Source: Antedon mediterranea
Taxonomy: Eukaryota > Animalia > Echinodermata
Assembly (NCBI RefSeq): GCF_964355755.1
Contig: NC_092672.1
Location: 23,449,237 to 23,513,236, forward strand
Length of the DNA: 64,000 nt
Reading direction: 5' to 3'
Shown one piece after another: positions 10,196-41,598 of this stretch (its first letter is position 1; the number at the start of each line of letters is the position of its first letter). The position numbers and the translations under genes were made by a program. A model generated the notes under the pieces. That model was not told the DNA's origin, searched no databases, and was given only the letters and a program-made list of their open reading frames with translations.

Positions 10196-10294
10196 AATAA
10201 AAGATCACCCTTGTATTATGCTGCCCAACTTGGTCACAGCAGCACATGTATGTGCCTGATTGAGGCAGGAGCAGATGTGAATGTTGCAGACAAG
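10196..10294 (+). CDS. ROCO exon: ankyrin repeat
   Basis: ttcag|...|gtaagt, 99 bp, phase 0: NKRSPLYYAAQLGHSSTCMCLIEAGADVNVADK, a canonical 33-aa ankyrin. Linkage to the downstream exons is inferred from phase. Confidence 0.8.
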
Positions 10295-13200
10295 GTAAGT
10301 CATGCACACTTGTATTTAAGTGTCTCAAGTAATTGTATAATTTTAACAAAATATTTAACTTTTTTTTCCAATTTAAAAATGTTAGATTAATTTTTCATAA
10401 AATCTTCAAATTGGAGTAGTAAATATCTTTAATGTAATAATTTTGTCTGATTTAATGTTGTAATTATAGATACAAAATCTTCACTCATCTTAAACCTTAT
10501 TTATTATTTTAATGATTTACATTAATACATATACAACAAATACAATACATTAGTTTATATTTTGTAATGACAGTTTTGCCAAATATAAATGTGGCACATT
10601 TCAACAAATTATTCAAACATTAATTTATCGACAAAATATCAATGATTAAAAATAAACTTAAAACTCTAATCGTGCCTTAAGTTGATCATTGACACTATTT
10701 TAACTAAAATAAATACCGGTAACTTAAATTTAAAGTTTAGTTAGCAAATTTCAAAAGGATGAACTAAAACACCTAATAAAAACCATAAAAGAGGCTATAT
10801 GAGGATGCTTGTTTTTCTTGTCTTATCATTATTGAATGGATGTTATTGAATTGAATTCACAGCCTACACATACAATAATATACAATAATGACAAAATTTG
10901 ATGTTTTAATTAAGTTTAACTAAAATGAAAAACTACAATGTGTATTCCATGCGTACTGTACACCCATTTTTTATTGTTGCAAAGTTTCTATTGGATTGAA
11001 TGTTAAATTGACCAAATATAAGTCCCGATAATGAACAGAACAGAGTATGCTCAGTATACTGTGCATAAGCATGCGCAGATTAATATGTTGTGTAGATTAC
11101 CGTCCCCCTTCGTCTACCATCCTGTCATAATGTCACTAGTAGGTTTTATTGTAAATTAACAGCACACTACGTGCAACAGCTAATACAGTAGTACTAATCA
11201 TTGTCAGTATTTTCATTTTTGTTGTAAATGTATAGTCAACAGAGACCTCTTAGAATCAGGCTTCTGAGTCATGTCAGTCATACATTCTACTCATTCACCC
11301 TTTACCAAAAATTTGGGATTTTTAAAATGTCTTTCTTTCCATCATATATATTCATTTAGGACTGACAATTTCATTCTTATGGTTTCATTCTACTGTAGAA
11401 CAATAATACTCTCTTTGTCATTACATTCAACCTCTTACATTAACATTCAAATTAATTCAGAATAAACACATTTGGATGATGAAGCCTAAAAAAAAAAAAA
11501 CCAGAATAACTAAAAGACAAATAAATTTTGATTTTTATATACATTACTTATACTACCTTTATAGGTATAAAATATACAGTGCTAGTTAAAGGGGATTCTG
11601 GGTTTAAAATTGCTTTTAAATATCGTTTATTAATTAAATAACAAATATTATAACAATAGACATGTCAGAATGAAGAAATAATAACGAGAAATTAAAAAAA
11701 AATTAATTTCATATACATTTTAGTTTAAAAAATTCATGCAAATTCTGTTTTTCAGCAGCTTAGGGAAGCTCATTAATATTCATGAGATATTCACAAAATC
11801 ACGTCATCAGTTTGTTCACTAATTTACATCTCTCTTCCTTGTCAAACGACGACCATCCGATCATTGTGAAATACATTTTTTTTGTAGATTTTCTAAGCTA
11901 GGCCTAAGTGTAATAACAGTAGCATATATTTATTTGACATTTAATGAAATACAAAATTTAGTACAGATCATGGAGTCATAAATTATAATAATTTTATACC
12001 TCTATAGCAGGGAATAATTTCGCCAGTGTAGCATAGCAAAAAGCTATACAAAACAACCTTAGCAAAAAATACAATACAAAACTATGTTCTTGACTAAAAA
12101 ATCAGTTTGATTAGCAATTTTGCTAAACAAAATTTTCAAATGAAATTTTTCCCTGCTATAGTACAGATCGTATTCGGCTTCACGTACTAGCCTAAATCAT
12201 TTTTTTTATGGGTGAGAGTCATTCTGACTAGGGATTCCATGCCACAATGGATGGCTACGTTAAAACATGGGGCCTATGGGCCTAGCTAGCCTTCTAAACG
12301 ATTGGCCCATAAATAACAAAACTCAGTGGATTCCAAACCCATCCTATCAACCAAACTCAATAATAAACAATATAACCTAAAACGTTTTACAAAGTCGGCT
12401 GTAAATATTGAGGCAAAACAAGGTCCGATTGCCGTCCGCACGTATGGTGTCTCGATCGTCTAGTAGGCCTAAAATTGTTTACTCTCCTAAAAAGCGGATA
12501 CTGCATCAAGCAAGTAGACCTAGTAGGAAGGAGACCTAGCCGATCCGGCCCAGTTAAAAATTGAGCTAGCTAGTGTAGTAGACCCTATGCGAATTGATAC
12601 TACCAGTCCTTTTACTAGGCTACACTTGTTAAAATTAGCAATACTTATGTTTACAAATATTCCAACTCTCTAATTCGAGCTATATTATCTATACCATTCC
12701 GGTAGGTCGAATCGACCTTCAATCAAATACTGTACATCGTTCATGTTGTGATTATAGACGGGGTATACTCGACCCGACCAGTTTGGTATTGTATGCTGTA
12801 TCTGCCCGTGACGATGCCAGGAATGGGCAGAGAGCACGTTTATCGTCTCGCTCAGAAGAAATGTACAGACGTTACGCTTCATTGATTTTTAAGGGTTTTT
12901 CCCTATTGTCAGTGCGAAAATTGGCAAACGCAAACTGAATCTCCAAATGATTTTACACAATTGTGATGAATTTTCATAGAAAATAGACATTAAATGGGAA
13001 GACCGACTAAAATTACATCAGATAAGCATAATTTTACAAAAGTAATTGATATGGTTAATGATAACGAGTCGTCGGAAGATCGACCATTTCACAAATTTTC
13101 CTATTCTGTAACAGTGTCATATCGCCGTAGCTTCACTTCACAGCCTTCATTCTGCTTCACCGCTCACTTTATAATAAGTGAAACTTTTACCGTTCAAGAG

Positions 13201-22200: not shown

Positions 22201-25200
22201 CGGTGAGGTTGAAATCTGTTTGTCAGTGGGTCTCACACCCAGCAAATACGGGTACAGGTGCTAGTAATTTATATGATCAGATCATTTGATATCTGCTGCT
22301 TTTAAGTACAGTTTGATTTTATGTGATCACATCATTTCCCTATTATCATTTGATTTATAATTTTAGTTGTAATTTTGTTGTTGTCGTCGTTGTGGTTTAT
22401 GTTTGTGAAACTAAACAAGATGAACAGATTAAAGAATAAAATATCTTACAATGTTTCTATATTGTGTAGTGAAGATAAACTCCTTTCAGTTCAATATTAT
22501 AGAAACTATTTTTATCAAGAAAGAGACCATGCCCCGCTTTAAATAGAGATGCGGTTATGTTGGGGAAAGAGAAAGAACTTTTCATAATGTATGAAGCTCA
22601 TCTGAAAACACTGTTTTCATCAAGGTCAAATATGCATAAGTTAGAACTCAGAATTAGAATGCTCAGGATATTAATGAGTATCACTGAAATATTTATTAAT
22701 GAATACAAATGTTGTTGAATTGTGTTATCTTAATGTCTACTACCAACCTTCATTTAAAATCAATAATTTTTTTAGGTAGATCAAGATCAAATATAGTTCT
22801 GACTTGTTAATGGTCACATGCCAGTATAGTTTATTGGTCTTGCCAGTGATAATGACAAAATATTTATTATTTTGGTCTACTATTACAGTAACACTTTTTA
22901 TCAATTAATGATACTGTATAACATATCAGTGCAACGTCCACTATTGTATTTAAAAAAATGAACAAAAATATGTATACTGTTCATTTTTTTGTTTTTTTTT
23001 TAAATTGGAACTGAGAAAGCATATAAAAAAGACAACATTGTATGTCTGAACATAGTATAAATATGCACATGGTATAAATATATAATTTGTAAAATGTGTC
23101 AGAGGTTGTACATTTACAAAAGTTAGTTAGTTTGTCAGTTTTTATGTCTGCTATAAAAGAGTTAGGAATAAAATTGTCATGTGACAGAATACCAACGTAA
23201 CATTTTTTCTTTAATCAGTATTTTAAAACCTGATGATTATGACCTTTTTCCAGGCTGGAAACACTCCACTACATGCACATCTGGCTCATAATGAATATCA
23301 TACATTAGAAATGGTGACCTGTCTCATAAATAAGGGGGCGTCAGTGACATCACAAAATAAGGTAATATATATATAGACAATTTCAGTAATACTGTATGGC
23401 AACAATCTTTCACCTACTCTAGTAAATTATTCTATTCTTTTTTTTTCTTTTTTTATATCTGGTTCATCATATAATTAATAATAATGACAATTATTATTAA
23501 ATTGTGTGATTTTTGGTAGACCTATTTAAAAAACCATTCCTTCAAAGATGGCAATATCTACTATCCCAGCGATTTTCAACTGATAGGAAGATTGTGGGTT
23601 GTATAATTTATGCTGAGATTGGACCTATCGGATATTTTGACGACATGTAGTATATGGCAGTGGGTAGAGATAATGTGCCCGGCTTCATAAGTTATTTAAT
23701 AAGGGCGTTTAATCCTATAACCTATGCTTCATTATTATACTCTGTAGCCATCTGTATTTCAATACTGATCTACACATGCGCACAGCTCGAATCTGAATTA
23801 AATGAAAGAAAGAATATTTTCCATAATTTCTTATCCAATGAACCATATCTTTTTTTTAACTTTGCTAGATTTTGTCCCAATTCAATCTGTTTCATAAGTA
23901 AATGTTATTTTTTGAACAGATGTCAGGATTATTCACAATGTGTAATTCAATCTAGAAATTGACATTGAAATCTAAATCATTCAGTTAAATAACTTATAAA
24001 GAGCAGACTTCCCAACTATGCTGATAATGGCGAAAGCAATTTTGAATATACTGATATTTCTAATCTCTATTAAGAATCTAAATAAGAAGAAAAAGAAAAT
24101 ATGCTAAATATTCGCACAACGTTAGTAATAAATTCATGTATTGTTTAATAATTTAAATATTGTATTTTCCGCCATTTGGCATATTTACTATTATAAATAC
24201 CAAAACCTTTACATTTTTAGTAGCGCCCTTTTTGGTCTAATGTATTTTTCAAAATATTATAGCGCCCTGTATAGTTTGGACATGATTTCATAAAACCTCC
24301 CAATGTATCATTTGATTTGTTGAGAGGTGACAAACTTATAACAGTCGATTATATAAACTGAATAACAATGTATTTTACTTTACTGTTAGTGTATTGTCAG
24401 TTATAGGCCTTTTGCTTATTTCATAAAGACAATACACATTAAACAATGATTCGGTAAATATTGAAATGTTGAATCATGAATTCCCTAATATTATTGTTGT
24501 TGTTGTTGGCGTCTTTGCCGCACCCAACATTTCCAGAAAAAAAGGTGAATATTTTTGGACAAAAATCACTCAAGCGTGACTTGTGTTTTTCACATGGTAA
24601 TACATGAAATTTGATCACTAAAATGCTTTAAATGTTGCTATTAGGGTATGAAAACATAGGGTTTGCCACAAAAATTGTAATGAATGTACTATTAGTTTAG
24701 GATATATTGTGAAAACATGGGTTTTATAGTTTATTTGCATTCAAGTGATTGTGTTGGAAAGAGATTAACATCGTTACCATTTTAAGATAGTTAAAACAAA
24801 TTATTTTATAACATGTGAATTATGGAATTATTTTTAAGGATAAGATAAATACAGCGTCACACTTGACATTCTTCTTTCACAAAAAAAAATAATTTTTAAC
24901 TTCATGATTGATTTTTTTTTCCACAGAATGGAAATCCTCCACTATATGAATACCTGATTCAAAGTCTCAACCCTGCTTCAGAAATTGTAAAATTTCTCAT
25001 TAAAAAGGATAGTGCATTATTGACATTGCTAAATAAGGTAATCTACAGAAAATTGAAGTTTCTATACATAAATAGATGTAAAATGCAGAACAATAAACTC
25101 ATGGGGACGGTCATTAACAGAGCTTAAACTCTGTTTTGAGACGTACACAGACAAAAGTCGGCTTCTTTCGCAGACCCTGTGCACGCAAGATTAGTGGGCA

Positions 25201-28200
25201 TGTTTGAGAAGTTTCTGCATTAGAAAGTCTAGGTCTTTAGGTAGCCAATTAAAGAGGATGAACTAAAAACACCGAATCAAAACCTTAAAGGTGCTTACAA
25301 GAATGCTTGTTTATACTAATGTAGCTAACAACTGTTAATGTAGTAAAACCTCCAGCTAATGTAGAAACACTAACAGCTTATGTAGTAAATAAAAAGTCAA
25401 CACCAGCTAATGTAGAACGTCAACAACTAATGTAGTAACAAAAATTGCCTCACACTATCGCCAGCTAATATAGAAAATATATATTTTACAAACCTGTTTA
25501 AATCTGTGCAAATGCATTTTTTTATTTAGCTATCAGTCTATCCACTTTTGTAAACGACCAATTTTCTAAAACGACCATACATTGTAAGCAAACATTTCTC
25601 TTAAGAGAGCGCTTTTCATAATTGACTACCTCTTGTAAGGGATCACCTCCTCTCATAAAGGACTACTTCTTATAATCGAACACCTCTTGTAAGCGACCAC
25701 CTCTCTTAAAGAACACACCTCTCTTAAGTGACCACCTCTTTCAAAGGAACACAACTTCTCTCTTAAGGGACAACTTCAACCACCACAAAAGGTAGGTTTA
25801 TGGTGATAGCCAAATATACAATTGTAGGGGTTTTCTGTCAAAACAATTGATTAACAGTGCACTTTTATTTATTTATCAAATCCAAACATTTAAAAGATCA
25901 CTCATATTATGGGATAAAGAGGCCTACTTCCCATTATGGGGATAGTGTAGTATGTGGTGAAAATTAAACACAGGAGAGAATGCTATTCTTGCTTCTACAT
26001 AATAAATAGATCAAAGTTGGTTTATCTGCCAGCAGTTTTTCTCATTGTTAGTATAGTATTACTATTTACGTTTGGATTCATAGATCTTGCCTACTACAGA
26101 ACAGAGGTAGTGTTTTGGATCTGGGTGTCTATCAATTAATATGTCTTTGTAAATAGCTTGTTTAAGTAAATATTTTTGTTTTTAGGAAGGAAAGACGCCT
26201 GAATCTATTGTAGAAACAAATATGTACATAACGAAAAAAGAAAAAACTGTGATTTTAAACTATTTTGACAGTAAGTAAAGTTTATAAATATAAATTATGC
26301 ATTAATCTAAGATAGGTAAACACAGTGCAAAAGCTTTAATGTGGTACAGGTGGTCATTTGAAATTATCAATGCTACTACTAAAAATTTTACAAAATTGTA
26401 CTACAGAAACAACCTGTAAGGTGAATATTTTTTTATATAAGCTGGCAGACCTTATTTTTCTGGTTCATTACAAATGAATGAAACTAAATTCTCTGGATCC
26501 AGTCCAATCAATAGCATAATTGATATGTATGTACATGGTTGCCACTATTTTATTATATTAATTGAGAGTTGGTTTAATATATTTGTATTAAAGATGTGTC
26601 CCCCTGAAAAAATAATTCTTAACAAAATGTGTATTGAATATGCTATTTTAATGTAACATAATAGTTATCCACTTTGACCAAAAATTGGATCGGGAAAAAA
26701 AACTGTAATTTAAAGCAAAAAAATGTTCAAATTGGCTGCCAGTCAATGGGTTTTTGGTTGAATTTAACCATTTATTTTGTCAATTTATAAGTGAAAACAT
26801 TTTTTTTCATTTTTTTTTCTACGGAAGTGATTATCTTTATTAAAACTACAAAATAACATATTCAAAGTAAGTCTGATTTAATTAATCTTCATTTTTCATG
26901 TTTTTGGGGGACAATACATCTTTAATATTAATGTATTGCTGGTACTCGAACATAATTTAATATTTTTATTTCCCATGGTTCAAGTTTACCGGAGGTATTA
27001 TTAAAGTTGACGATAACTCTTGTACTGTATATGGGATGACATTTATTTTACTGTTTAATAACAAAATACTGATAATATGAAGCATTTTTAAGGCTTACAG
27101 AGGCAGAATGAGATAACAATTTGTTTTTTGTCATAATAGAATTGTTAGTTCCTGCAGAGATACGTGCCAGGGGTAAACATGCTATTAAAATATATAAAAA
27201 AGAACTTAAAACTGGTAGCATGTCTGTTGTGAATTCAAGATGTATGTTTCTAGGAAAAGAAGGTGCTGGCAAGACTAGCTGTGTAAAGGCTATGGTTGGA
27301 GAAAGGTAACAAGTAAAATTGGTATAATGTTTATAGAGTATATTACTGTACGGTATCTTAAGCTGTATTGACCATCAATAGTCAATAGTCATCAATCACA
27401 TTATCTTGTGAACTGCTAAAGGAAATGTTTTATTTAATTTGAATTATTATACACTAAAGGTGACATTGCAGTATGTTGAATATTGTGATTCTTATAAAAT
27501 AATAAAAACATTAATTTTATACACTTTAATTTACTTTTAAACTTACTAATGTTCTATTCATTAAAATTTATCAGTTGTTTTATGATTGGAATATTAAAAT
27601 GCAAACCCTTTCATGATTTAGTCATTTTATACATACTATGTATGTTTCTAAAATGTACAATAAATGTTTAACTTTACTATATAATAGATTCAATTCTGCA
27701 GAACAATCCACAGATGGAATTGTTACAACCACAGTGTTTCAAGCAAAGAAGGATTGTAGTCAATGGAAAAAGATAAAAGATGTTAATGGTGAGATAAGTA
27801 ACTGAAAATGTTATATTTTACATATTCATTATTTTGCTATAAATTTAACATTATTTTATTTTTGATAAAATAATACTAATATTTAAATAAAAACATTCTT
27901 AAATTTATAATATAATGCCATTTACACATTGGTATAACAATTAAAAATTCATTTGGCTATGCAACCATATACGGTTTGGTCTTGAAATCACCTCAGATAC
28001 CAAGAATTGGAAAATTACATTCAATCTTCAAAATATTGCTTATCGTTGTATTCCTCTCATCCCATACAACACATTGGTTTCCTAATCTAATTGTCTATTT
28101 CTTGCATTGTATAGATATTGAGCTTTCAGAGCAAATTCGTTCACATGCTTTAGGAGAAAAGGTTGATAAAAGGTTAAAAGAAGGTAGGCACAGACTAATA

Positions 28201-31200
28201 AAGCTTTTATAACATTTAAATCTGCATAAAAGATGTATAAATGTAGGTTGATATCGATTAGTAACACTGTTATATTGGTTTTGTTTCTGTAATTTTTTAT
28301 AGAAGGCAATGTTGGAATCTGGACAAAATTTAAGAATGGTATGTACAAGATGGTAAGAAGAAAAGAAAAAGTGAGTGACATAACTAGTATATGGGACTAC
28401 GCTGGTCAACTAGACTACTATATAACGCACAGGGTATGTTTTCATTATTGTATTATGAATATCACTTGTATTCTAAGATTCATATTTAAAACAAATATTA
28501 TTTTTATTGGGTTCAGAAATAAATCAATTGGAAGCTTTTAAATACTAATAGAGCTTTATTTTCTTTTTACATGATGTGTTCTTACAGTATTTTGCCAAGA
28601 ACATTTTTAACAGGGTTATTTTATCAATGTGCAACTTTTTTTTTAGACTATGCTATGTTTTTGTTGGTTTTTCTAGTTCAATTGATCTTACATGTTTCAA
28701 TTACTGATTTTTTTTATACAAGTTTTCATATGAAACATCACCAGGGGCTGAACCAGGGGAGGGGCCAACAGGCATTTGTACTTGTCAATATTGTCAACAG
28801 TAAAAAGGGAGGGCAGAGTGGAGTAGATGTGTGAATGAGAAGTTTAAACAACCTCAAAACCTCAGAATACCATACCTCCACCATTATACCAGGCCTTTCT
28901 TTCTTTCTCTTTTGTTCTTATTTCATGCAATAATGCGATGCTGAATAAAGATCAATAGGTGATCTACAATAAAAAATGCTAAAATAAGTACTTTACACAT
29001 ACTATTCACAATCTAATTACAACAAATACTATTCCTGATCTAGAAAGAAAGAAGAAGACTCCTAAATGCAAATCACTATCCAAATGAAAAAGAATATCAC
29101 TTTTGAAATAATATCAATAATTGAATAAGTAGTATGACTGTGATGGTATTTAAAGAAATTGTATTAAATCGTAATTTATACTTACAACATTTATATTGTT
29201 TGTTTCAATCTATGCATAAGTGTTTTTATGATTAAAATCAATATATGCAGAGAAAATGTGATTTTAAAACTATCCTAAAATCCCATTGAGCCGAATTCCA
29301 CGCGTTCCATCATCGGAAAACATATATCAATGAAATATACACTACATTCACAAATAAAACAATGAATTGTACAAGTTAAACTTGAGAAGGAATTCTTTTT
29401 CGTTTAGAGTTGTACTTTTGTGGAATGGTCTTTCTGACTATGTTGTTTCAGCTAGTTCTTTAAATTTGTTCAACTAAATGGTACGCTCGCTTCTAGGTCG
29501 TGCCCACAGATGGTTCTCGAATACACAGTAATGTCAGCATTCAAAAACTGGCGATTTCAAATGTACAATAATGCAGGACAATAATATATGTCGTTTACAG
29601 GAACGAATAAATAGACACTGTGATTTATGTACTCAACTAAAATTAGCACACTGGGAATTACTTCCGAAAGAGAAACTAAATGAGACCAATTGTTTAAGTC
29701 AAATTTAAACAAACTTAATTTGTGTTTTGTATGTAACATTATGGTTGAGGAATGGGGATGAGGATGGGTGCAAAGAGGAACAATTTTTAAATAGATTCTT
29801 TATTTTGTAACGAAATATTAATTAACATGTTTTACAAATAATATACCACTAAACACAGTAAAACATTGCGATGTAATACTTTGTTGAAACTATCACCGTC
29901 GTAGTCGATTGAAATAGTACAGTACATGTAACGATACACTACGACGTATGTTTATATATAATGTTAAACAATTTGTGAAAACCACCTCTATTCGGGGAAA
30001 ATCATAAATTCGATTTAATCGGTAATAAATATTAAATTACGGCGAGTGAAAACGCTAGCTCATTATCCGTTTAAAAAAAATTATATCCAACCTCTGCAGC
30101 ACAGATTGAAAACAAAATGGATCGAATTTCTGTTATGAGTATACAGTACTTTCCTTAACGACGCCTGAGGGAATAGACACTTGTGGAACGACACAGAGAT
30201 TGGAATGTTCCATTCATCGCAAATCAATACATTTGTATAAACGTATATTAAATCTATCAAAATAGTATTTTTTAAAGAAAATCGGCCTGTCTTCAACATT
30301 ATGATACTGTACTCGAGCTGTTCAACCGGTTTTCAGCTATTAAAAACAATTATCGTAGGAGGAGATAGGAAAATGCGAAGCCTCCTCGCATTTTTGTGGC
30401 GGGTTTTTTTCAAGATGGACATCCATTAGACAGTGTATACCACGATCGGAAAACACCCCCATTTGGGGCAAATCGTTGAACCTAAATTCGTTTTAATCGT
30501 CAATAACTAATTATCTAACTTAATTTAATTAGTAAACAGGGTTACATCAGGTGGTTAAAATCAGTACCGAAAGTACGAACCAACTTTATATACCATCGAG
30601 TAAAAATTCTAGAAATAAGGCGCGATTTACCGAATTTTGCCCTTACGTAAATTTATATATAGAAAATAGACTAAATGAGGCTTGGGTAAACCATCCATTA
30701 AAGTTCACACCGTTTGTACAATATGACATGATAACCGTGAGGGGCTTACAAGCAATATGTTTCGCCTCAATTTCCCTCTATTCATACGACTATGAAGGAT
30801 TACACGTAAACAAGTAAAAGTCATTGTAATCAAAAAAGCTTTGAATTTAACTGCAAAAAAACACAATTTCCAACCAAAAATTGTATATTTTTTACCACTT
30901 AAAGAACTTGAACCGATACTTGGATTTCAGTCATTTAAATTGCAAAATGATAAACATTAATTTCTTTTTGGTTAACTGAAAGAAAAGTGAAATGATTAAT
31001 AAATGACTAAACTTGACCTACACGCATGCACCAGTGACCTCCTGCGAGGTGAACAATGGTTGTGTAAATTCCATTTGACGTAGTACACGCACCCCTCTTG
31101 TAAGAATTACCACATGTATCAATGCAAGCTGAACGATGGTGGAAAAACATGCATCCCTCTTATAAGAAATTACCATGTGTTCTTGCCTGCATTGATGGTA

Positions 31201-34200
31201 TCTGTTCCGATTTACAATCATATTGGTATGTATCACTCTGGCCTAGACAATGACGACAATACGACAGGCTCATGTGTATACCAACAATGAAATTGCGCTA
31301 TATTTAGACATTTACAGGGTTTGCTCACTGTCTGGGTGACAGCATGCAGCTTGTTTTTTAACGTCTAAACAAGTAGGTTAGACCTAGCCAATGGTTTTGA
31401 AATGATCATGACAACAAAACATACATAGCAATACACATCGTGTCAAGTTAGTTCCCGCAACATAGGAACCACAGTCCTTGTAAGGGTCTGGTATCACAGT
31501 GTAAAAAACATACATAGTAATACACATGTCAAGTTAGTTCCTGCAACATAGGAACCACAGTCATGGTAAGGGTCTGGTATCACAGTGTATAAAACATACA
31601 TAGCAATACAAATCATGTCAAGTTAGTTCCTGCAACATAGGAACCACAGTCCTGGTAGGGGTCTGGTATCACAGTGTATAAAACATACATAGCAATACTC
31701 ATCATGTCAAGTTAGTTCCTGCAATATAGGAACCACAGTCCTGGTAGGGGTCTGGTATCACAGTGTATAAAACATACATAGCAATACACATCATGTCAAG
31801 TTAGTTCCCGCAACATAGGAACCACAGTCATGGTAAGGGTCTGGTATCACAGTGTATAAAACATACATAGCAATACACATCATGTCAAGTTAGTTCCTGC
31901 AACATAGGAACCACAGTCCTGGTAGGGGTCTGGTATCACAGTGTATAAAACATACATAGCAATACTCATCATGTCAAGTTAGTTCCTGCAATATAGGAAC
32001 CACAGTCCTGGTAGGGGTCTGGTATCACAATGTAAAAATGGTGAAAGTTTATTTTACAGTCTGCATTAATCTGCATGTTTGACTTGATGAGGCATGAACA
32101 AAAGTGCTCAGAACAAAAGCAGAGCAAAATAGATAAAAAATGACTATTTATTTGCACACTAGATTACTTCATAAAAATGATAAAAAGAAGAGCTATTTTA
32201 TCACCTTGATGAAACAGTACAGTATGTAGTGTGCAAATAGAATGTTGAAGTTTTTACTTGAGTCATCAAACTTTATCTATATAAAATATTGTAATATTAT
32301 ATTATAATTAACCATGAAAACATAATCCTTGTTAATTTCCAGTTTTTCCTGACAAATACAGTATCATACTGTGTTGCTTTCAATGTCATGGACAACTTGG
32401 ATGAGCCAGCTAAACCACGGGATTCAAAAATAGTAAGTTAAACTTTAGTACTTTAGACAATGTAAACTACAAATGGCTGCTATGATTTAATAATGTAATT
32501 TAATTTCAATATTAGTTTAAAAATATATTGGCATTGTCATTTTAGGGTCAACTAGGAATGACTAATTTGGACATGAATTTGTTCTGGATAAGGTCCATTT
32601 ATGAACACACTGTACAACATGGTTCAGGAAACATTATTTCAATTGATGGCAAGAACATAGGGTCACCTCCCATCTGTTTGGTTGCAACTCATGTGGACAA
32701 ATTGTCAGGGACAGCATCAGAAAAAGAGGAGGAGGTAAATAGTATATAAATATTAGATATTTATATCTTGTCTTTTTCTCAACTATTACCCCTTTCACAC
32801 CAACCTAGCAACACCGGGGTTAATAAAATAAAATTGTAAATGTCGCCCTCTATTTTTTTTTTTTTACATAGCGACGATCCGGAGTTTAACTGCGGGGTTG
32901 AACAGCTGAATATTCTCCGGAGAGCGAACTGCGGGGACACCCTGGTGTTTTGGTGTGAAAGGTACAACATCAAACTCCGGAGTGTTTCGGGTCAAAAGGT
33001 CATCCTCACACGATTACTCATTGCTTTAGTTTTATTTCAAAATACTTTAAATATTTGTACAAAATATATAGCGGGTTTAAAAAATAATAAGTAGTATCAA
33101 TAAAACATTATATTACTTCTGAGACTTTTGAAAGTAATTATTAAATTTAAAATATTAATTAAAATGATTCTAATGATCGTCGCTATGTAAACAAACAAAA
33201 TAGAGGGCGACATTTACAATTTTATTTTATAAACCCCGGTGTTGCTAGGTTGGTGTGAAAGGGGTATCTCCGGAGTTTCTCGACGTTTTGAATGGTCATA
33301 AACCCCGGGGTGTCTCCGGAGACACTCCGGAGTTTTGGTGTGAAAGGGGTATTAGTCAACATAAGCGCTCCTAGCAACTGAACACAACTGAATGCAACTA
33401 TAAACCTCAACTGACTGCAATTGACAGGCGCACAAAAATGTAGACATTTATAATTACTTTCAGTTGCTTATGTTCTATTTTTTCTGTAACTGAGTGAAAC
33501 TGAAAAGTTTTAAACGTGTCACACGTGTGGTATGGGTAACGGCGACCAGTCGCGATTGGTTTGTATATACTGGTTCCTATAGAACTATGAATTGCGTTTT
33601 GCGTGTAGTGAGGTAAATTAATAGGCTCTTTAGAATTAATATTTTGCCTACAAAATGATTGACTGTATACAACCCATCAGTACAATTAGAACAAAAAAGC
33701 AGTTTGAGGTCTAATGTACATGTTTATACAATCAAATAATATAACATGAAAATGGAACATTTAAGTTAAACATTACATGCATTACAAAAGAATTCATTAA
33801 AGAAAGCACATTAAAGTAGAAACATTGTTTGAGATTTTGTCATTTTGAATTACAGTATGAATTAAATAAAACAGACAGTTATGGAAGATTGTGTACATTA
33901 GGTTTTGACATATTGTATTGTAAACCACTGATCATGATGATCACTATCACGCAGATTGATCTCACTGATCATGTGAGTATTCTCAGTGGATATATTATTG
34001 TCAACACTTAGCTTGAAAATATGCCTGGAGGCGCAAACAAAATCCTACATCGCGACAAAAATCCAAAATGACTGCCCGTTTGATATAAATTGTATTTATA
34101 ATGTCTATTAAATGCTCTTTCAGAAATTTTTGATTGGGTATGTCATCCTCTGAATGTATTTTGTAATTTAACATATGACTTCTAAGTCCAAGATGGCCAT

Positions 34201-37200
34201 CAAAATTCAAAATCGCTTCAAATTGAGCTGAATTGTATTTATAATGCCTATTAAATGGCCTTTTTAAACTTGTTTGTTTTTTATTTACCACACACAATGA
34301 ATACAAAGTAAAAATATTAAATTCATTCATTCATTCTAGAAACATTTATTGACAATATCATAGCATGGCATAGCATGGTTGGCATATAATATATATAGTC
34401 GAGAGACTACAAAAGGCCCGATGGGCCTGTCGCTGTAGTCCCTCTTTACATTATACAAGTATACATACAAATGAAATATACAATATAGATAATACAGTAT
34501 ACAGTATTAGCGTGATCAGTAATCATTGTGATGAGTTATCAGCGATAGTAGCAATATGAATGCATTTATTAATTGAAGGTTATGAAGATGTACAAGAAAA
34601 TGTTTGATAAAATGGAAGGAATGCCATATGCTCACCATGTAGATCGTGAAATGTACATGGTTGATAACACCATGAAATCACCTGAAGGTATTACAAAACT
34701 TAAGCGAAATGTTGGTAGATACATGAAGGAAATGGTGAGAGAAGTTCCAGTAAAGTGGGTTAATTTACAGGAAAGTTTGCAAAGAATTGGTGAAACAGAA
34801 TTGTGTATTACATTTGAGGAGGTAAAGTTTTGATTGTGGATTCCAATGTAATTATATAATATTATTATTTATTGTTACTTTGTTTTATTCCTACAGACAT
34901 TAGTAATATTTATAGTCCTGGCCCATCATTGAATTTTCCATTAGATTTTCTCCAGGCTCTACAAGTAATGTACTTAAGTTAAGTTATTTGTTTGAATTAA
35001 ATTCTGTATTAGGTTTCCAGGATTGGCACTCAATGTGAAATTTCCGAAGAGGGGCTCGACACTGCCATAGAGTATATGAATGACATTGGGATCATTTTGC
35101 ATTCAAGTACTAACAAAGAACTGAAGAACACTGTGATAACAGATCTTAAAATGATGATTCAAATGGTGACAAAAGTGATCACGGTAGTTAAACCATCTAT
35201 TAAAGTGGTAGGTAGATAATGTATTTTATTATGATATTAGATTGTCATCATGTGGATGTATAGGTGATGTTAATAATCTGTTCTTAGTAACTTGATGTGA
35301 AACAGTATAATTGTATTGATCATGTGATTGCACTGTGTAAAGTAAGAATAAACTGGGTTTTTTTTTAATATAGAAGCAAATGAGGATGCTGTGGAAAAGG
35401 CTTGATGAGGAAGGAATACTGGAGGAAAGACTGCTACGGTATTTATGGAAACATGAATTAAAGGAAGACCCACATCGCTTTGAAATCTTTACTGAAGTGA
35501 TGAAAACATTTAGTTTGCTCTTTGAGAAATTGAAGGTAAGTTAATTCAATTCAATTCAATTTCTTTATTGCTGCAAATGCCATCAAGGGCTAATATCCGC
35601 TTAAACATACTACATCATACAGATACATTGTATTTGCATTCAAAATTGTTTTAAACATTTTATTTTAGATTGGATGTCACTTAAATTAGTTTAAATGTTA
35701 TACTTGTAATATTTTAATTTACAATACTTTGCTTACATCTGCAGGTAACCGAAGGTAACCGGGTATTCCTGGTTCCATCTCGAATGAAAACCGAGGAAAA
35801 GAGTCTTGAAGTTGAAACGGACAAACAAAATATGGTGTCAATCTATCTTACACCTGTAGACTTTCTTCCTAATGCTGTCTACAATACATTGGTTGTTGCG
35901 TTTCTGGACTTAATGGAGGTAAAAAATAAAGATGGCGAACAACTTGTGTCTCAAAACCGCAGTGAATTCGACTTTAAGGATCATGGGGTCAATCTAGGCA
36001 CAGTGAAAATTGAAAACAAGCATGCATTAAAGGTTTGGAAATTCATTTATTTATTTAATTTTTCAAATAAATATATTTAAAGACAAAATTGTAGATAGCA
36101 AACAGAGTTTTAAATAATTACAATCTCAATCTTACTACTATTACACTACAGTATTACATTTTCATTTTTATGAATACATTGAATGCACAATGAATACTGG
36201 TAATAATAATGGTAATGTTTTGCATATATTATTTAACTCATTTTAAATTAACAAAGACAATTTTCCTCATCAGCTTGAAATAACTTATCTGACTGAAGTT
36301 GATGGTAATGTTAGAGACCAAATGAATGAACCGCAGCCAAGTTTCTGCATAGAGGTAAAGATTAGCATGATAGGCTTTATTAATAACATTGTTAACACCA
36401 GCACTTGAATGTAATGATTGCCAATAAACGGAAATAAATGGAAATTATCATATGTACGTTCAAGTCGCCATGTACGAAACTCAAATTGCTGACTCTAATA
36501 AAAATTACAAAAGACATATTTATAATATTTTATTCTACGATATGTATATAATGTCTTTTTTATTCACCCAAAAACTATGTAAATTCATGGCACGCTGGAC
36601 CACCTAGTCGTAGGCGTAAGGTATCCCAGGAAAACTTGATGCCCCAAATTGGAATTTGGCAAACTGGCTAAATACTATATATAAACAGCTTCCACCTTCT
36701 ATGTAATCTTTGTTATCATGTAACACTCAGAGCCATTGAGTCACTCTGCATAATCTATTCTGCTCTGCTTAATTGCGTCAAGCACTTTTGCCTATATGAG
36801 TTGGTTCAAACTTTCAACCTATTATATTTAAAACTTATGTTCTACATTTTACTTGGTTTGTAGGTGTTAAGTTATCTAATGCATCAACTAGAAACTGTGC
36901 TTGTCACTAGAGAAGGAGTTGGTTACAATCTATGTGTGTTGTGTACTGCTTGTAATCCAGCAGAGAAGCCTCATTTACATGATCTCAAAAAGTGCTTGAA
37001 ACTAGATACTAATAGTGTTAAATGTGGCAATGAACGCATGATGACCAATCATTTAAAGTGGCTATTTCTGGAAGGTTAGTTGAAATTTTTGATTATCATC
37101 ACAATTTTCTTCAATTGCAGTATTTTTTATTTGATACCACATTTTAACAATACAATGTACAAAGATATATGTCCTTTAGTCCAGAGACATCTACGAAGGC

Positions 37201-40200
37201 CGTTTTAATTATAGATAGGTTTTATTGTATGGTTAAATACTTTTTTTTACAATATAATGAAAATCAGTTGACTAATTGATTGACATTCTGTGAATTTCCC
37301 CTGCAGAATATGGGGAAACAATCTCATCAGTCGCAGGTTTGTTGATGATAATACCAGATAATAAAAATGTTTTTTATGTATTTACTAGTCCTTGCTAATG
37401 GTAGAAAAATGATAACATGAAACTATCAGTATCCACATAAGATAAAAAAATGATAACATGAAACTATCAGTATCCACCTAAGATAAAAAAAAAATGATAA
37501 CATGAAACTATCAGTATCCACATAAGATTAAAAAAAATGATAACATGAAACTATCAGTATCCACATAAGATAAAAAAAAATGATAACATGAAACTATCAG
37601 TATCCACCTAAGATAAAAAAAAATGATAACATGAAACTATCAGTATCCACATAAGATAAAAAAAATGATAACATGAAACTATCAGTATCCACATAAGATA
37701 AAAAAAAAATGATAACATGAAACTATCAGTATCCACATAAGATAAAAAAAAATGATAACATGAAACTATCAGTATCCACCTAAGATAAAAAAAAATGATA
37801 ACATGAAACTATCAGTATCCACCTAAGATAAAAAAAAATGATAACATGAAACTATCAGTATCCACATAAGATAAAAAAAAATGATAACATGAAACTATCA
37901 GTATCCACCTAAGATAAAAAAAAATGATAACATGAAACTATCAGTATCCACATAAGATAAAAAAAAATGATAACATGAAACTATCAGTATCCACCTAAGA
38001 TAAAGAAAATCATCAAGGAAAGAATATAATATTTTGTTGTTTTGTTATACAATACATTTTCATTGTAGATTCTGTCAGATTTACAATTGTTAGGATGAGA
38101 TATAAACGAGCATTATAAATAATGTATTTCTAAAAATCACCATGTCTCAAGTTCAGCAAATTCTAAATAGAATTTAAACAAAAATCATAAAAGATGTGGT
38201 GGCTAGGTTTTTTTTTAAACGATTATACTAGAAATGGAAATATTTGTTTTTAAACAAAACTGTGTGAGCTATTATTTTAGGCCTTAATTATTATGTTATC
38301 TGAGATTAACAAAAGCATGTAAGTATTAACTAACACTAATACACAAGCTAATTTTCCCACAAGCTGGCTTAAAAATCAAACTATTTAAAAAAAAATGATA
38401 TGGTCTTCATTGCTAAGTAAATTTGGAAAAATGTTAGTATCTATATATAAATTTACGCAAGGGAAAAATTTGGTAAATCGCGCCTTACTTCTAGAATGTT
38501 TACTCGATGGTATATAAAGTTGGTTCGTACTTTCGGTACTGATTTTAACCACCTGATTTAACCCTGTTTACTAATTTAAATTGAGTTAGATAATTAGTTA
38601 CTGACAATTAAAACAAATTTAGGTTCAACGATTTGCCCCAAATAGGGAGTTTTCCAATCTGTCTAATGGAATTCCATCTTGAAAATACCTGCACACAATA
38701 ATATGAGGATGCTTGAAATTTACCTATCTCCTTCTATGATAATTGTTTTTAATAGGCTGAAAACCGATTGAACACTTCGAGTATAGCATCATAATGTTGA
38801 AGACAGGTCGATTTTCTTTAAAAAATACTATTTTATAGATTTAATATACGTTTATACAAATGTATTGATTTGCGATGAATGAAAGATTTCAATCTCTCAG
38901 TCTCCCAGTATAAGTATTTGGTTTAACACAAGTAGGTACATTTATGGGCCCTTCGAAGATAAACTTAAATCTTTAAATATAGTATTGCAATACGTACAAT
39001 ACTGAAAATACGTATTAACCATTTTTCGGTGCCATTTTTATCGCAAATTTCTTACAGCGAGTGTGGGTACTGTTAGATATATAAACACAAAATATACAAA
39101 ACCTTTGTATTAATTAATTATTTATTATAATTTAAAAAAATATAAACGTAGTAATGATGTATCGTTACATGTACTTTACTATTTCAATCGACTATGACAG
39201 TGACAGTTTTAACAAAGTATTAAATCGCAAATGTTCTACTCTATTTAGTGAGACAAATCTCATGACACAAAATACATGAATAAGGACCAATGTGAATGGC
39301 ATAATAAAACAGTGTATCCTAGTGTTAAAAGAATGGTTTACCGTATTTAATAAAAACTAACTTTAAAATCTGTATTGAATGAATTGTAAGTGATACTGTT
39401 TTTGTTATTATGACTAATATGTTTATTTTGCATAGATACAACAACTGCTACTCCTCTGTCTACAAGCTCATTAGAGACAGGTTAGTGGTTATTATTAGAT
39501 CATGTATCATATGGACAGTTTGTCTGAAAATACATGAATATACATAATAGCATAACATCTTGGTGTCATTAGCAGAATAGTTGATTTAATACTGGTATTC
39601 TTGATTATGACTAATGTATATGTTTATTTTGCATAGATGCACCTATTGCTGCTCCTTTGGCTGCAAGCTCATTAAGGACAGGTATAGGTGAGTAACATTA
39701 GATCATTAGGGCATTGTTACAACCATTTATGTAGTACCAGCTATAATAAAACTACTGCTAAGAAAGAAACATTAAAGATATCATATCATTTATTTCATTT
39801 GAACAAAATACAAACATGAAAACATAACAAATGTAAATCAATGAGGCAGGATTACCTAAAATAACAGTCGAGAAGCCAAAATAAGACATTCAAACATATT
39901 CAAAACATAATTAAAAACACATTTTTTGTAAGAACGTTAAAATTGCTGTATATGAATGACAAGATAGTTTAAATTGTATGAAGTTAAATATATTACAGCA
40001 AAATCCACCACAGGTTAGCTAATTCTTTAAAATAATCAAAGCCGAACAAATCAGAATGGAATCATGCTAATGTTTGTTCTAACTTTCAGAAACATCAAAT
40101 TATCAACATTATTTTCTTTGATATTATTAATTTGAATACTATAATAACAATTTTCAAATAGTAGACAAAACTTTTCTACGTAGGAAAGGTGGTCAAAATA

Positions 40201-41598
40201 ATAACTAAACATCCTTGAAAACAGATTGTGTGTATACTTCTAAAGACTGATCATTTGAAATATATTAAGTCAAACTAAATAATTTATGAATATGATGAAA
40301 ACACTTTTATTTAATATTAATTTTAATTCCCTCGTCCAACCATCTTTCAATTTCTGTTCAATTATTTACAACTCACTCTCTGCTTCTCAAGCCTCCAGAA
40401 TAGATCGGACCCATAACAAGTTCTTGCACTTTGTCGGCCCATCAGCCAACCTGCCTCCTATTGTTTCCCCGACATCTAGGAGAGCAAGACAGGATTTGCA
40501 CTTCCTGTATAAATGTCTTACTTCTAGTTTGATTGTAATCTTGTTTCGTTGTTTTATTTTAATGTTCCTGTTTGTAATCTTCGTTGTAAACCCTTTCTTC
40601 TTGTTAAATTTTCTTGTGTCAATGTTTGTAAAAATGGTATTTTCTGTAGACTCTCGTCATTGTACAATTCGTGTCTTTTAAACAATAATTCTTTAGATAT
40701 TTTTAACTGTAATTTTTCTCAATTTAAATGTATTATTAATGAAATTATTTAAATTTTCTTTTTTACATTTTTGTATATATTTATATTGGCTCATATTTTA
40801 TAGTTTAGTTATTTTATTTTTTTACACTGTTGGTTTGAAACAAAGAATAAAGAAATTCAAAAGTTGAGGCCTTAAAATTATACAAAAAAATATGGAAACC
40901 GTCATCATTAATTGAAGTTTAGCTTCAAATTATTTTCCATATCAAGCCCAACTGTGTTAACATAGAGCCTGATTTATTCCTTTTCTCAATGCAACTAAAC
41001 AAAAGGAAACAGGCCTATGATTAATATGGTGAATAGTATTCATTAAAAATAATTCTTTATTACAGAAACAAGTCCAAATTCACTTGAAGACAGGTTAAAC
41101 AAGTTAAATTATGATCTCAGTGAAGTCTTTATGAAGAATACGAGAAAATTCTTATTTTTGAGATGTTGTCTCTTTGATGAAGTAGATTTACAAGTCCTTG
41201 GCAATAAAGATTACAAAGCAAATGATTATTTTAATGAACTCGCTGATAAAGGAAAGATCAAACCAACCGACGTCAACCTTCTGCTTGAAGTGGCAACACT
41301 ATCAGAAATTAAACATGCTAAAGATCTTGTAAAACAGTATATGAATGACAACAATGTACAAATTAGTAGTCAACAGAAGTTGTCCCCATATAGAAAAAGA
41401 TTGTGTAAGGCATTGGAACAGTTTAACCCAAGTGAGTTGAATAGAGTTACAGCTTGTTATCAATTGGAACAACCAACCATTTGGGATGTAACATTTTATT
41501 TAGAGAGCAAATCCAAATTGATAGATGAATCAGAAAGAGAGAAGTTTGCTAAGCTGCTTGGACCAATCCCAAATAAAATAATGTGTAAGTCAATTTGA
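10196..41598 (+). CDS. ROCO-family protein (ankyrin-Roc-COR-putative tandem DED), multi-exon, 5' end not found
   Basis: Phase-consistent GT-AG exons 10196-10294, 23254-23361, 24927-25037, 26186-26270, 27140-27305, 27688-27788, 28115-28183, 28303-28433, 32343-32432, 32546-32734, 34579-34821, 35013-35207, 35374-35535, 35745-36032, 36274-36354, 36864-37074, 37307-37336, 39436-39480, 39637-39681, 41066-41598 sum to 2982 bp in one open frame. Roc motifs: GKEGAGKTS, STDGI, WDYAGQ, ATHVD. COR-like EVPVKW and FLVPS. Confidence 0.88.
11590..13253. mobile_element. Kolobok-like non-autonomous DNA transposon
   Basis: TTAA on both flanks; imperfect TIR AGGGGATTCTGGGTTTAAAA / TTTTAAACCCGGAACCCCGCT. Confidence 0.65.
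13714..14025. repeat. Minisatellite, 70-bp unit x about 4.5
   Basis: cagcagtatgatcatactcactgtttata... repeated in tandem. Confidence 0.95.
14027..14060 (-). mobile_element. Helitron 3' terminus (different family)
   Basis: Reverse complement: hairpin ACCCGCCCTGGGGCGGGT, then ATATTTG CTAG|T; 5' end not located. Confidence 0.55.
14609..16612. mobile_element. Foldback/Mutator-like element with inverted subterminal tandem arrays
   Basis: Left array of GGACAACTACCCCC (14617-14870), right array of GGGGGTAGTTGTCC (15970-16600); 8-bp TSD GAAAAATG at 14601-14608 and 16613-16620. Confidence 0.8.
14939..15348. mobile_element. Mutator-like MITE nested in the foldback element
   Basis: TIR GGGTGTTTCGAAACTA / TAGTTTCGAAACACCC; perfect 9-bp TSD GTTTTTAAC; internal ~21-bp GGGTCTCCCTTTTCGTATA tandem array. 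Confidence 0.85.
17267..18890 (-). mobile_element. 5'-truncated Rex1/Babar-type LINE with reverse transcriptase
   Basis: RT motifs LFVDFSSAFN, GVPQGCVLSPLLY, KYADD; frameshift near 18020 continuing as YKYLGVEID...FVPAAIRLYN; 3' end CCCATGGGGATAATAAAG plus (TTGAA)n; TTGA on both flanks. Confidence 0.9.
17959..18879 (-). pseudogene. LINE ORF2 reverse transcriptase fragment (306 aa)
   Basis: ORF track; lacks the endonuclease and has a frameshifted C-terminus. Confidence 0.85.
23254..23361 (+). CDS. ROCO exon: ankyrin repeat
   Basis: ccag|AGNTPLHAHLAHNEYHTLEMVTCLINKGASVTSQNK|gtaat, phase 0. Confidence 0.85.
24927..25037 (+). CDS. ROCO exon: degenerate ankyrin repeat
   Basis: acag|NGNPPLYEYLIQSLNPASEIVKFLIKKDSALLTLLNK|gtaat, phase 0. 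Confidence 0.8.
26186..26270 (+). CDS. ROCO exon: ankyrin cap/linker
   Basis: ttag|EGKTPESIVETNMYITKKEKTVILNYFD|gtaagt, phase 0 to 1. Confidence 0.8.
26592..26921. mobile_element. Kolobok-like MITE
   Basis: TTAA|AGATGTGTCCCC...GGGGACAATACATCT|TTAA; related inverted copy at about 60949-61230. Confidence 0.7.
27140..27305 (+). CDS. ROCO exon: Roc P-loop
   Basis: VPAEIRARG...RCMFLGKEGAGKTSCVKAMVGE. Confidence 0.9.
27688..27788 (+). CDS. ROCO exon: Roc switch I
   Basis: FNSAEQSTDGIVTTTVFQAKKDCSQWKKIKDVN, phase 2 to 1. Confidence 0.85.
28115..28183 (+). CDS. ROCO exon: Roc insertion
   Basis: atag|DIELSEQIRSHALGEKVDKRLKE|gtagg, phase 1 to 1. Confidence 0.7.
28303..28433 (+). CDS. ROCO exon: Roc switch II
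   Basis: ...DITSIWDYAGQLDYYITHR|gtatgt. Confidence 0.9.
29474..30663 (-). mobile_element. Non-autonomous Helitron copy B
   Basis: 5' TCTATATATAAAT at 30663; degenerate 3' hairpin and terminus near 29474. Confidence 0.8.
31416..32037. repeat. Minisatellite, 89-bp unit x7
   Basis: aaaacatacatagcaatacacatcatgtcaagttagttcc... repeated in tandem. Confidence 0.95.
32343..32432 (+). CDS. ROCO exon: Roc
   Basis: ccag|FFLTNTVSYCVAFNVMDNLDEPAKPRDSKI|gtaagt. Confidence 0.85.
32546..32734 (+). CDS. ROCO exon: Roc G4
   Basis: TNLDMNLFWIRSI...PPICLVATHVDKL. Confidence 0.88.
32787..33351. mobile_element. Harbinger-like MITE with long inverted repeats
   Basis: TACCCCTTTCACACCAA terminal motif; about 90-bp inverted repeat between 32787-32878 and 33176-33266; extra GGTGTGAAAGG copies. 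Confidence 0.7.
33352..33548. repeat. Dispersed repeat, related copy at about 44841-45104
   Basis: Shared tagtcaac, tgacaggc.cacaaaaa and tgtcacacgtg...gggt.ac..cgacca blocks. Confidence 0.5.
34579..34821 (+). CDS. ROCO exon: Roc end/COR start
   Basis: MYMVDNT...EVPVKWVNLQESL...ITFEE|gtaaag. Confidence 0.85.
35013..35207 (+). CDS. ROCO exon: COR
   Basis: LDTAIEYMNDIGIILH...LKNTVITD. Confidence 0.85.
35374..35535 (+). CDS. ROCO exon: COR
   Basis: LWKRLDEEGILEERLLRYLW...VMKTFSLL. Confidence 0.85.
35745..36032 (+). CDS. ROCO exon: COR
   Basis: RVFLVPSRM...FLPNAVYNTLVV. Confidence 0.85.
36274..36354 (+). CDS. ROCO exon
   Basis: tcag|LEITYLTEVDGNVRDQMNEPQPSFCIE|gtaaag. Confidence 0.75.
36864..37074 (+). 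CDS. ROCO exon: COR C-terminus with Cys/His cluster
   Basis: YNLCVLCTACNPAEKPHLHDLKKC...VKCG. Confidence 0.8.
37307..37336 (+). CDS. ROCO micro-exon (30 bp)
   Basis: ctgcag|EYGETISSVA|gtttgt, phase 1-1. Confidence 0.55.
37405..38003. repeat. Minisatellite, about 43-bp unit x14
   Basis: atgataacatgaaactatcagtatccac(a/c)taagat plus a variable A-run. Confidence 0.95.
38440..39250 (+). mobile_element. Non-autonomous Helitron copy C (3'-truncated)
   Basis: A|TCTATATATAAATTTACG start; collinear with copy D. Confidence 0.8.
39436..39480 (+). CDS. ROCO linker micro-exon A (45 bp)
   Basis: catag|DTTTATPLSTSSLET|gttagt, phase 1-1. Confidence 0.7.
39637..39681 (+). CDS. ROCO linker micro-exon B (45 bp), paralog of A
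   Basis: catag|DAPIAAPLAASSLRT|gtatag, phase 1-1. Confidence 0.7.
40320..40860 (+). mobile_element. CR1/L2/Jockey-type LINE 3' fragment
   Basis: SLVQPSFNFCSII...RIDRTHNKFL...RRARQDLHFLYKCL and frameshifted FNVP..NLR...LDIFN...FK resemble the post-RT region of ORF2; AATAAA near 40847. Confidence 0.65.
41066..41598 (+). CDS. ROCO terminal exon: two death-fold (DED-like) domains
   Basis: tacag acceptor, open to TGA at 41598. YFNELADKGKIKPTDVNLLLEV and LSPYRKRL...ELNRV resemble DED1 and DED2 of caspase-8-type prodomains (recognised by eye). Confidence 0.75.

What the first reader, a model, noticed from the sequence alone, without database searches (positions are those of the whole stretch)
10196..41598. 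Kinase-less ROCO protein with ankyrin sensor and C-terminal tandem DED-like domains
Seen: 20 phase-consistent exons give ANK x3-4 - Roc (G1-G4 motifs present) - COR - low-complexity linker - a terminal exon with two death-fold-like segments, and no kinase. Known: human ROCOs are LRRK1, LRRK2, MFHAS1 and DAPK1 (kinase-ANK-Roc-COR-death domain), and tandem DEDs are the caspase-8/cFLIP recruitment module. Inference: a repeat sensor/GTPase switch/DED effector layout, similar in logic to an NLR, that could nucleate caspase-8-type filaments. This is a candidate invertebrate cell-death or immune receptor. I cannot tell whether the architecture is already catalogued.
Basis: partly seen in the sequence, partly recalled or inferred. 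Interest (0 to 1): 0.78.

Follow-up and report, generated by a model that had tools for sequence, protein, structure and literature searches.

The report
Feather-star GTPase with swapped death tail
Twenty exons of a feather-star gene read in one frame as ankyrin repeats, a Roco GTPase without a kinase, and a tail predicted to fold like caspase-8's death-effector pair; the tail exon was likely exchanged recently between related genes, which fits a likely immune or cell-death sensor.

Summary
Twenty exons (10196-41598) with GT-AG introns give a stop-free 993-aa frame: ankyrin repeats, Roc with G1-G5 motifs, COR, linker, terminal exon. The last exon is predicted to fold as a tandem DED (pLDDT 95; caspase-8 TM 0.74, Z 15.6). 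No kinase was found in the window or in 65 crinoid relatives. Identical RefSeq models name the organism as Antedon mediterranea. The layout recurs in uncharacterised RefSeq paralogs, kinase-less death-fold Rocos are published for Trichoplax, and this scan already reported the family many times in this genome. Added here: a switch at the last intron. One paralog is 85-100% identical up to exon 19 and 46% in exon 20; another is at most 40% and then 93% (AU p=0.0009 and 4e-8). The same DED module occurs on a caspase, NLRs and kinases of crinoids. Against the caspase-8 analogy: the DED2 FL motif is absent. The start codon, a full-length transcript and function are not shown. Verdict: new variant of a known kind; interest 0.5.

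The parts
10196..10294 (+). Exon 1: one canonical ankyrin repeat, phase 0-0; starts at an acceptor, true 5' end unknown
   Evidence: Ank E 1.8e-7; same-type repeat precedes exon-2/3 types in P0154, P0139, P0114
23254..23361 (+). Exon 2: one ankyrin repeat, phase 0-0
   Evidence: Ank E 5e-6
24927..25037 (+). Exon 3: divergent ankyrin repeat, phase 0-0
   Evidence: 97% to P0139 and P0154
26186..26270 (+). Exon 4: partial ankyrin or capping segment
27140..27305 (+). Exon 5: helix before Roc and P-loop G1 (GKEGAGKT)
27688..27788 (+). Exon 6: Roc switch I, G2 (STDGI)
   Evidence: 100% to P0153
28115..28183 (+). Exon 7: insert between G2 and G3, variable in length among paralogs
28303..28433 (+). 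Exon 8: Roc G3 (WDYAGQ)
32343..32432 (+). Exon 9: Roc
32546..32734 (+). Exon 10: Roc G4 (ATHVD); RefSeq XP_071943908.1 starts here
34579..34821 (+). Exon 11: Roc G5 region and start of COR-A; RefSeq XP_071944307.1 ends just behind it
35013..35207 (+). Exon 12: COR-A
   Evidence: E 6e-7
35374..35535 (+). Exon 13: COR-A
   Evidence: E 0.005
35745..36032 (+). Exon 14: COR-B region
   Evidence: weak COR-B hits in close paralogs
36274..36354 (+). Exon 15: COR-B region
36864..37074 (+). Exon 16: end of COR with a Cys/His-rich segment
37307..37336 (+). Exon 17: 30-nt linker exon, phase 1-1; used in P0003, skipped in P0001
39436..39480 (+). Exon 18: 45-nt Ser/Thr-rich linker exon, phase 1-1
39637..39681 (+). 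Exon 19: 45-nt linker exon; RefSeq uses a donor 6 nt downstream
39682..41065 (+). Intron 19 (phase 1): inferred breakpoint of the tail exchange
   Evidence: per-exon identity switch; tree conflict
41066..41598 (+). Exon 20: tandem DED module (DED1 about 41083-41349, DED2 about 41386-41586) and stop codon
41585..41590 (+). Consensus donor GTAAGT in phase 1 just before the stop; would make the DED exon a phase 1-1 module, use not shown

Best explanation
This is a kinase-less Roco GTPase gene of the feather star Antedon mediterranea with one-exon ankyrin repeats in front and a predicted tandem death-effector tail, and it likely works as an intracellular immune or cell-death sensor whose tail exon was likely taken over recently from a distantly related Roco gene. 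Proposed steps: (1) the ankyrin repeats bind a foreign or damage ligand (inferred from their fast turnover); (2) Roc-COR changes nucleotide and oligomer state (motifs shown, cycle inferred from other Rocos); (3) clustered DED pairs recruit crinoid proteins carrying the same module, such as a caspase, kinases or small adaptors (such proteins are shown, binding is inferred); (4) caspase activation or kinase signalling follows (inferred). The assembly surface would differ from human caspase-8 chains.
For: Intact frame and motifs. Tandem DED fold: pLDDT 95.3; Foldseek top rows caspase-8 tDED, TM 0.74, E 1.7e-3; VIA Z 15.6, rmsd 2.9, 159 aligned; profile's best PDB hit caspase-8, E 0.005. Family expansion: 56 of 66 profile hits carry crinoid names; 33 of 65 crinoid records carry the module and 0 of 65 a kinase; other members end in Death or HEPN_DZIP3 domains. 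Sensor end varies most: P0154 is 48, 80, 97, 92% in exons 1-4 and 89-100% in exons 5-12. Tail switch at intron 19 in both directions, with conflicting trees. The module is shared with 13 NACHT proteins, 3 kinases and 1 caspase among 70 scanned hits; that caspase is from Antedon and has the QACR motif. Same logic published for bacterial LRR-AP-GTPase-COR-effector systems (PMC8195603, passages) and Trichoplax (PMC4104024, passages).
Against: DED2 FL position reads A-C, the DED1 one C-C, and RxDL reads AKDL (mapped through the caspase-8 alignment); the FL motif is required for caspase-8 chains (PMC3477315). The caspase's module is only 27% identical and on a long branch. RefSeq gives two overlapping partial models, not one full-length protein. 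No start codon is fixed and intron 1 is 13 kb with a reverse-transcriptase remnant. All paralog evidence is from predicted gene models; P0005 may be a fused model (N-terminal OGFOD2-like domain, no match to the P-loop region). No dN/dS test was possible. No Roco of this type has a tested function in the papers found.
Confidence: 0.55

Rival explanations
1. The DED pair acts as a FLIP-like brake or decoy: it would cap DED assemblies built by NLRs, adaptors or caspases rather than start them.
For: No FL motif in DED2; five helices in DED2; cFLIP and viral FLIP chains rank just below caspase-8, Z 12-13.
Against: The whole clade, including the caspase's own prodomain and NLR N-termini, lacks the FL motif, so its absence does not single this protein out as an inhibitor.
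Confidence: 0.14
2. The locus is a decaying or partly expressed copy in a birth-and-death cluster, giving only fragments (Roc-only or COR-DED) or no protein.
For: Two overlapping partial RefSeq models; no start or N-cap exon in the window; many family records are fragments.
Against: All 20 exons are stop-free with canonical splice sites and intact G motifs; full-length paralog models exist.
Confidence: 0.15
3. A housekeeping Roco scaffold (trafficking, cytoskeleton, development) in which the DED pair is a neutral passenger of exon shuffling.
For: Known Rocos act in trafficking, chemotaxis and patterning (PMC4104024; PMC3341825); no immune induction data.
Against: Lineage-limited expansion, changing repeats, and tails drawn from DED, Death and HEPN domains.
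Confidence: 0.12
4. It is the 3' part of a DAPK1-like gene whose kinase lies upstream of the window.
For: ANK-Roc-COR-death-fold order resembles DAPK1 (recalled); the 5' end is open; an Atlas DAPK1 cluster scores 0.90, rank 10.
Against: No kinase match in the window; 0 of 65 crinoid records; full-length paralogs begin with a short cap and ankyrins.
Confidence: 0.04

Closest known systems
Trichoplax adhaerens kinase-less ROCO set (Civiero et al. 2014, PMC4104024; passages)
   Same: Expanded animal Roc-COR proteins flanked by repeats and death-fold domains (CARD, Death)
   Different: Here the repeats are ankyrins and the death fold is a tandem DED; DED is not named in the passages read
Brown-algal LRR-ROCO candidate receptors (Zambounis et al., PMC3341825, passages; Teng et al. 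2024, PMC11378527, passages)
   Same: One repeat per exon, birth-and-death family, repeat-Roc-COR, immune role proposed
   Different: LRR not ANK; no death-fold tail; the documented shuffling concerns sensor exons, here the effector exon
Bacterial LRR-AP-GTPase-COR conflict systems (Kaur et al. 2021, PMC8195603; passages)
   Same: Fast-changing repeats, Roco switch, interchangeable C-terminal effector (at least 24 kinds in bacteria)
   Different: Prokaryotic, LRR sensor; here an animal spliced gene with a DED pair
Mollusc and sponge Roc-COR-Death/CARD/HEPN clusters (ESM Atlas; Argopecten hits)
   Same: Nearest look-alikes by features (0.96-0.97) and structure; no kinase family among those listed
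   Different: Death or CARD instead of tandem DED; about 20% sequence identity
Caspase-8 / cFLIP / vFLIP tandem DED
   Same: Predicted fold, TM 0.74, Z 15.6; conserved S-x-Y-R linker
   Different: 17-18% identity; FL and RxDL motifs not kept; placed at a C-terminus
DAPK1 (human ROCO; architecture recalled)
   Same: ANK-Roc-COR followed by a death fold
   Different: No kinase found; DED pair rather than one Death domain

Membership tests
Roco (Roc-COR) proteins | Roc GTPase domain with G1-G5 motifs | tested here: met
   Motifs in order; Pfam Roc above cut-off in the close paralog P0008; family profile hits C. tepidum-type Roco entries at E 4e-18 and LRRK2 Roc
Roco (Roc-COR) proteins | COR directly after Roc | tested here: met
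   COR-A E 3e-17 in P0001, above cut-off; COR-B weak in paralogs
Roco (Roc-COR) proteins | GTP binding, hydrolysis and nucleotide-dependent oligomer change | not testable with these tools
   Needs biochemistry
Tandem-DED proteins (caspase-8/cFLIP type) | Two packed death-effector folds | tested here: met
   (predicted model); Pfam DED not hit by this exon itself but by at least 48 of 70 relatives at E<=0.01
Tandem-DED proteins (caspase-8/cFLIP type) | Exposed FL motif in DED2 for chain growth | tested here: not met
   A-C at the aligned positions; mapping is by sequence alignment, not superposition
Tandem-DED proteins (caspase-8/cFLIP type) | Filament formation and caspase recruitment | not testable with these tools
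   Needs cell or in vitro assays
DAPK1 subfamily | N-terminal kinase | tested here: inconclusive
   None in the window or in 65 relatives, but the 5' end is open
LRRK1/LRRK2 subfamily | Kinase after COR | tested here: not met
   COR is followed by linker, DED exon and stop
NLR (STAND) receptors | NACHT or NB-ARC ATPase | tested here: not met
   The nucleotide domain is Roc; only the logic and the DED module are shared with crinoid NLRs
Exon-shuffling ROCO receptors (brown-algal type) | One repeat per same-phase exon | tested here: met
   Exons 1-3 are 99, 108, 111 nt, phase 0-0
Exon-shuffling ROCO receptors (brown-algal type) | Diversifying selection on repeat exons | not testable with these tools
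   No genome or paralog DNA held; protein-level gradient only

The most novel reading that the evidence does not exclude
Crinoids run a combinatorial intracellular receptor system: ankyrin cassettes, Roco switches and a mobile tandem-DED exon are reassorted by exon-precise recombination, and the DED subtype on the tail selects which caspase, kinase or NLR is engaged through an FL-independent DED assembly. This gene is a recent rewiring event caught in the genome.
Probability: 0.3. Interest if true: 0.8.

Novelty: new variant of a known kind. Interest (0 to 1): 0.5.

Why it matters
If the mechanism holds, Roco GTPases serve in animals as a second scaffold for NLR-like receptors, wired straight to the DED-caspase pathway. 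The gene offers a clean natural experiment: paralogs with nearly the same GTPase core but different tails (P0008, P0009), and with nearly the same tail but a distant core (P0005), allow a test of whether the tail decides the output. A DED family lacking the FL motif, shared by receptor and caspase, would show another way of building DED assemblies. The general layout is not new and has been seen repeatedly in this scan.

Tried and rejected
No whole genome is held, so no paralog count by locus, synteny or dN/dS. No RNA holder listed; the run guessed to be RNA covered introns evenly with no exon-exon joints listed, so it gives no expression evidence; short contigs did not bridge intron 19. Complex prediction of the tail with the prodomain of caspase P0100: no verdict, score 0.00 in two runs, alignment not used. 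Single-sequence searches of exon 20 found no Pfam family and no meaningful PDB hit; Foldseek had 0 rows at E<=0.001 although all top rows were tandem DEDs. DED1 versus DED2 by BLAST: no similarity. Searches for more ankyrin, cap or kinase exons in 612 plus-strand pieces before 27200 found only exons 1-4. No convincing downstream exon for the donor at 41585 among 9 candidate acceptors. Intron 19 shows no similarity to the intron-1 reverse transcriptase and no Pfam hit. Three hits (P0082, P0096, P0105) lack the module and were dropped before the tree; modules covering 110 profile positions or fewer were also left out. Paper searches that found no description of ANK-Roc-COR-tandem-DED proteins or crinoid Rocos; the library lacks most subscription papers, and figures and supplements (Teng Fig. 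2 with about forty animal domain combinations, Kaur source data) were not seen.
Full report
Observation. I translated the plus strand, read the splice sites and spliced 20 exons from 10196 to 41598. All 19 introns are GT..AG, phases agree and the frame has 993 residues with a single terminal stop. Pfam on 13 of the 20 exons gave ankyrin in exons 1 and 2, weak Roc in exon 8, COR-A in exons 12 and 13 and nothing in exon 20. The G1 to G5 motifs lie in order.

Identity. Exon 20 found 7 proteins among 716 candidates, all named Antedon mediterranea. XP_071943908.1 (P0001, 661 aa) matches exons 10-16 and 18-20. XP_071944307.1 (P0153, 306 aa) is 100% identical to part of exon 5 through exon 11. The two overlap in exons 10-11, so RefSeq does not give one full-length product; one of them could come from an identical copy elsewhere. 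Paralog P0154 follows exons 1-12 in order, P0008 follows exons 4-20, and P0111, P0112, P0015 and P0109 are single ANK-Roc-COR-DED models. These are predictions, not transcripts seen by me. The 5' end is open: no further ankyrin, cap or kinase exon was found upstream in the window.

The tail. An alignment of exon 20 with 37 relatives gave a model with pLDDT 95.3 and pTM 0.88, six helices in the first half and five in the second. Foldseek's listed rows are all caspase-8, cFLIP or viral FLIP tandem DEDs, best TM 0.74 at E 1.7e-3. VIA-align over 48,161 chains ranks caspase-8 DED first, Z 15.6, rmsd 2.9, 159 aligned. The profile's best PDB sequence hit is caspase-8, E 0.005, and the Atlas's first cluster is a DED cluster, commonest in echinoderms. 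Motifs differ. Using the alignment, caspase-8 F122/L123 falls on A-C here, and in the 71 modules of this clade mostly on A or G followed by H, Y or F; RxDL reads AKDL. Mutation of that FL motif blocks caspase-8 chains (PMC3477315, passages). So the fold is shared, but the human chain interface is probably not.

The family. With P0001 as query 27 of 33 hits carry crinoid names; with an 18-sequence profile, 56 of 66. Among 65 crinoid records, many of them fragments, 0 matched a kinase probe that found its controls and 33 carry the DED module. Others end in Death (P0022, P0129) or HEPN_DZIP3 (P0020, P0023), and another clade has the DED pair in front of Roc (P0132-P0135, P0037). The ankyrin end varies most: P0154 is 48, 80, 97 and 92% identical in exons 1-4 and 89-100% in exons 5-12; P0114 is 42-62% in exons 1-4 and 83-95% in exons 9-13. 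Exons 1-3 each encode one repeat in phase 0, as in brown-algal LRR-ROCOs (PMC3341825, passages).

The tail exchange. P0008 is 85-100% identical in exons 5-16, 18 and 19 and 46% in exon 20; P0009 behaves the same. P0005 is 10-40% where aligned in exons 2-18 and 93% in exon 20 (95% by BLAST). P0005 and P0006 are 59% alike in the core and 65% in the tail, so that tail type travelled with their core, and the simplest reading is that this gene's lineage acquired it recently. The core tree joins this gene with P0008; the tail tree joins it with P0005. AU tests reject holding the same-tail genes together in the core tree (p=0.00086, 15 rows) and the same-core genes together in the tail tree (p=3.7e-8, 18 rows). 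Caveats: quick trees, subsets of the rows held, groups named after seeing the trees, direction unrooted, and gene models that may be chimeric, above all P0005. The P0008/P0009 half of the evidence does not depend on P0005. Intron 19 is phase 1, and a consensus donor in phase 1 sits at 41585 just before the stop; relatives such as P0010, P0044 and P0007 continue at that point. This fits a symmetric, mobile exon, which is an inference.

Possible partners. The module occurs in 72 representatives at 50% clustering. Of 70 scanned: 13 NACHT proteins, 3 kinases, 1 caspase, 2 Rocos, a very large GTPase, 2 NHL proteins, ZU5-UPA, TPR-ATPase, ubiquitin and many small DED-only proteins. All 15 of these 70 that I looked up are from Antedon or Anneissia; the rest were not looked up. 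The caspase (XP_071950579.1) has a catalytic-type QACR motif and a 27% identical module.

Mechanism. Most likely (0.55) a sensor-switch-effector protein: ankyrins recognise, Roc-COR changes state (a nucleotide-dependent dimerisation device is the model mentioned in PMC4104024), and clustered DED pairs recruit crinoid DED proteins. Shown: exons, motifs, family pattern, existence of candidate partners. Predicted: the fold. Inferred: ligand binding, switching, recruitment, outcome. Rivals are a FLIP-like brake (0.14), a decaying or fragmentary copy (0.15), a housekeeping scaffold (0.12) and a DAPK1 fragment (0.04).

Comparison and novelty. It is a Roco protein by Roc and COR, not an LRRK or NLR, and probably not DAPK1. 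Kinase-less Rocos with CARD or Death domains are described in Trichoplax (PMC4104024, passages), repeat-Roco-variable-effector systems in bacteria (PMC8195603, passages), ROCO with TIR or death-like domains in Aplysia (PMC9334734, passages), and Roc-COR-Death/CARD/HEPN clusters from molluscs and sponges are the nearest Atlas neighbours. I found no paper on ANK-Roc-COR-tandem DED or crinoid Rocos, with the limits that figures, supplements and most subscription papers were not seen. PMC6321704 had no Roc or COR mention. Earlier notes of this scan report the family at several other loci of this genome and similar genes in mussels and acorn worms; none held all my words for a swapped tail. Verdict: real, a new variant of a known kind, interest 0.5, the added value being the exon-precise effector exchange and a testable partner set.

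Noticed in passing
window 45300-61000, minus strand: Exons of a myosin gene facing the Roco gene tail to tail; Myosin_head hits in 4 of 4 motor pieces scanned. The label myosin XIX is my recall, untested. Its last coding exon holds a 42-bp repeat, 4.9 copies, 100% identical (46008-46214).
   Followed up: partly
window 17594-18936, minus strand: Non-LTR retroelement remnant in intron 1: RVT_1 E 5e-30 over a 325-aa frame plus a second frame.
   Followed up: partly
window 9530-10153, 30035-30663, 38439-39100, 50338-50987: Four copies of an interspersed repeat of 470-680 bp, 83-97% alike, in both orientations; one ends about 40 bp before exon 1.
   Followed up: no
window 40283-40678: A 132-codon open frame in intron 19 that looks like the 3' end of a LINE reverse transcriptase (recalled pattern); no Pfam hit. 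It lies in the intron where the tail switch maps.
   Followed up: partly
window 36864-37074 (exon 16): Cys-x2-Cys, His and further Cys are kept across paralogs at the end of COR; possible metal site, weak zf-UBR hit E 0.03.
   Followed up: no
P0110 (Antedon, 1681 aa): A model with ankyrins and two different Roc-COR units in tandem and a hydrophobic end; may be two neighbouring genes of the two clades, an arrangement that could favour tail exchange.
   Followed up: no
P0007 (XP_071947630.1): A PARP14-like model begins with the second DED of this tail type, 69% identical.
   Followed up: no
window 14614-16607: Mirror-image arrays of 15-17 bp repeats flank a 22-bp array in intron 1, possibly a transposon with complex inverted ends.
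   Followed up: no
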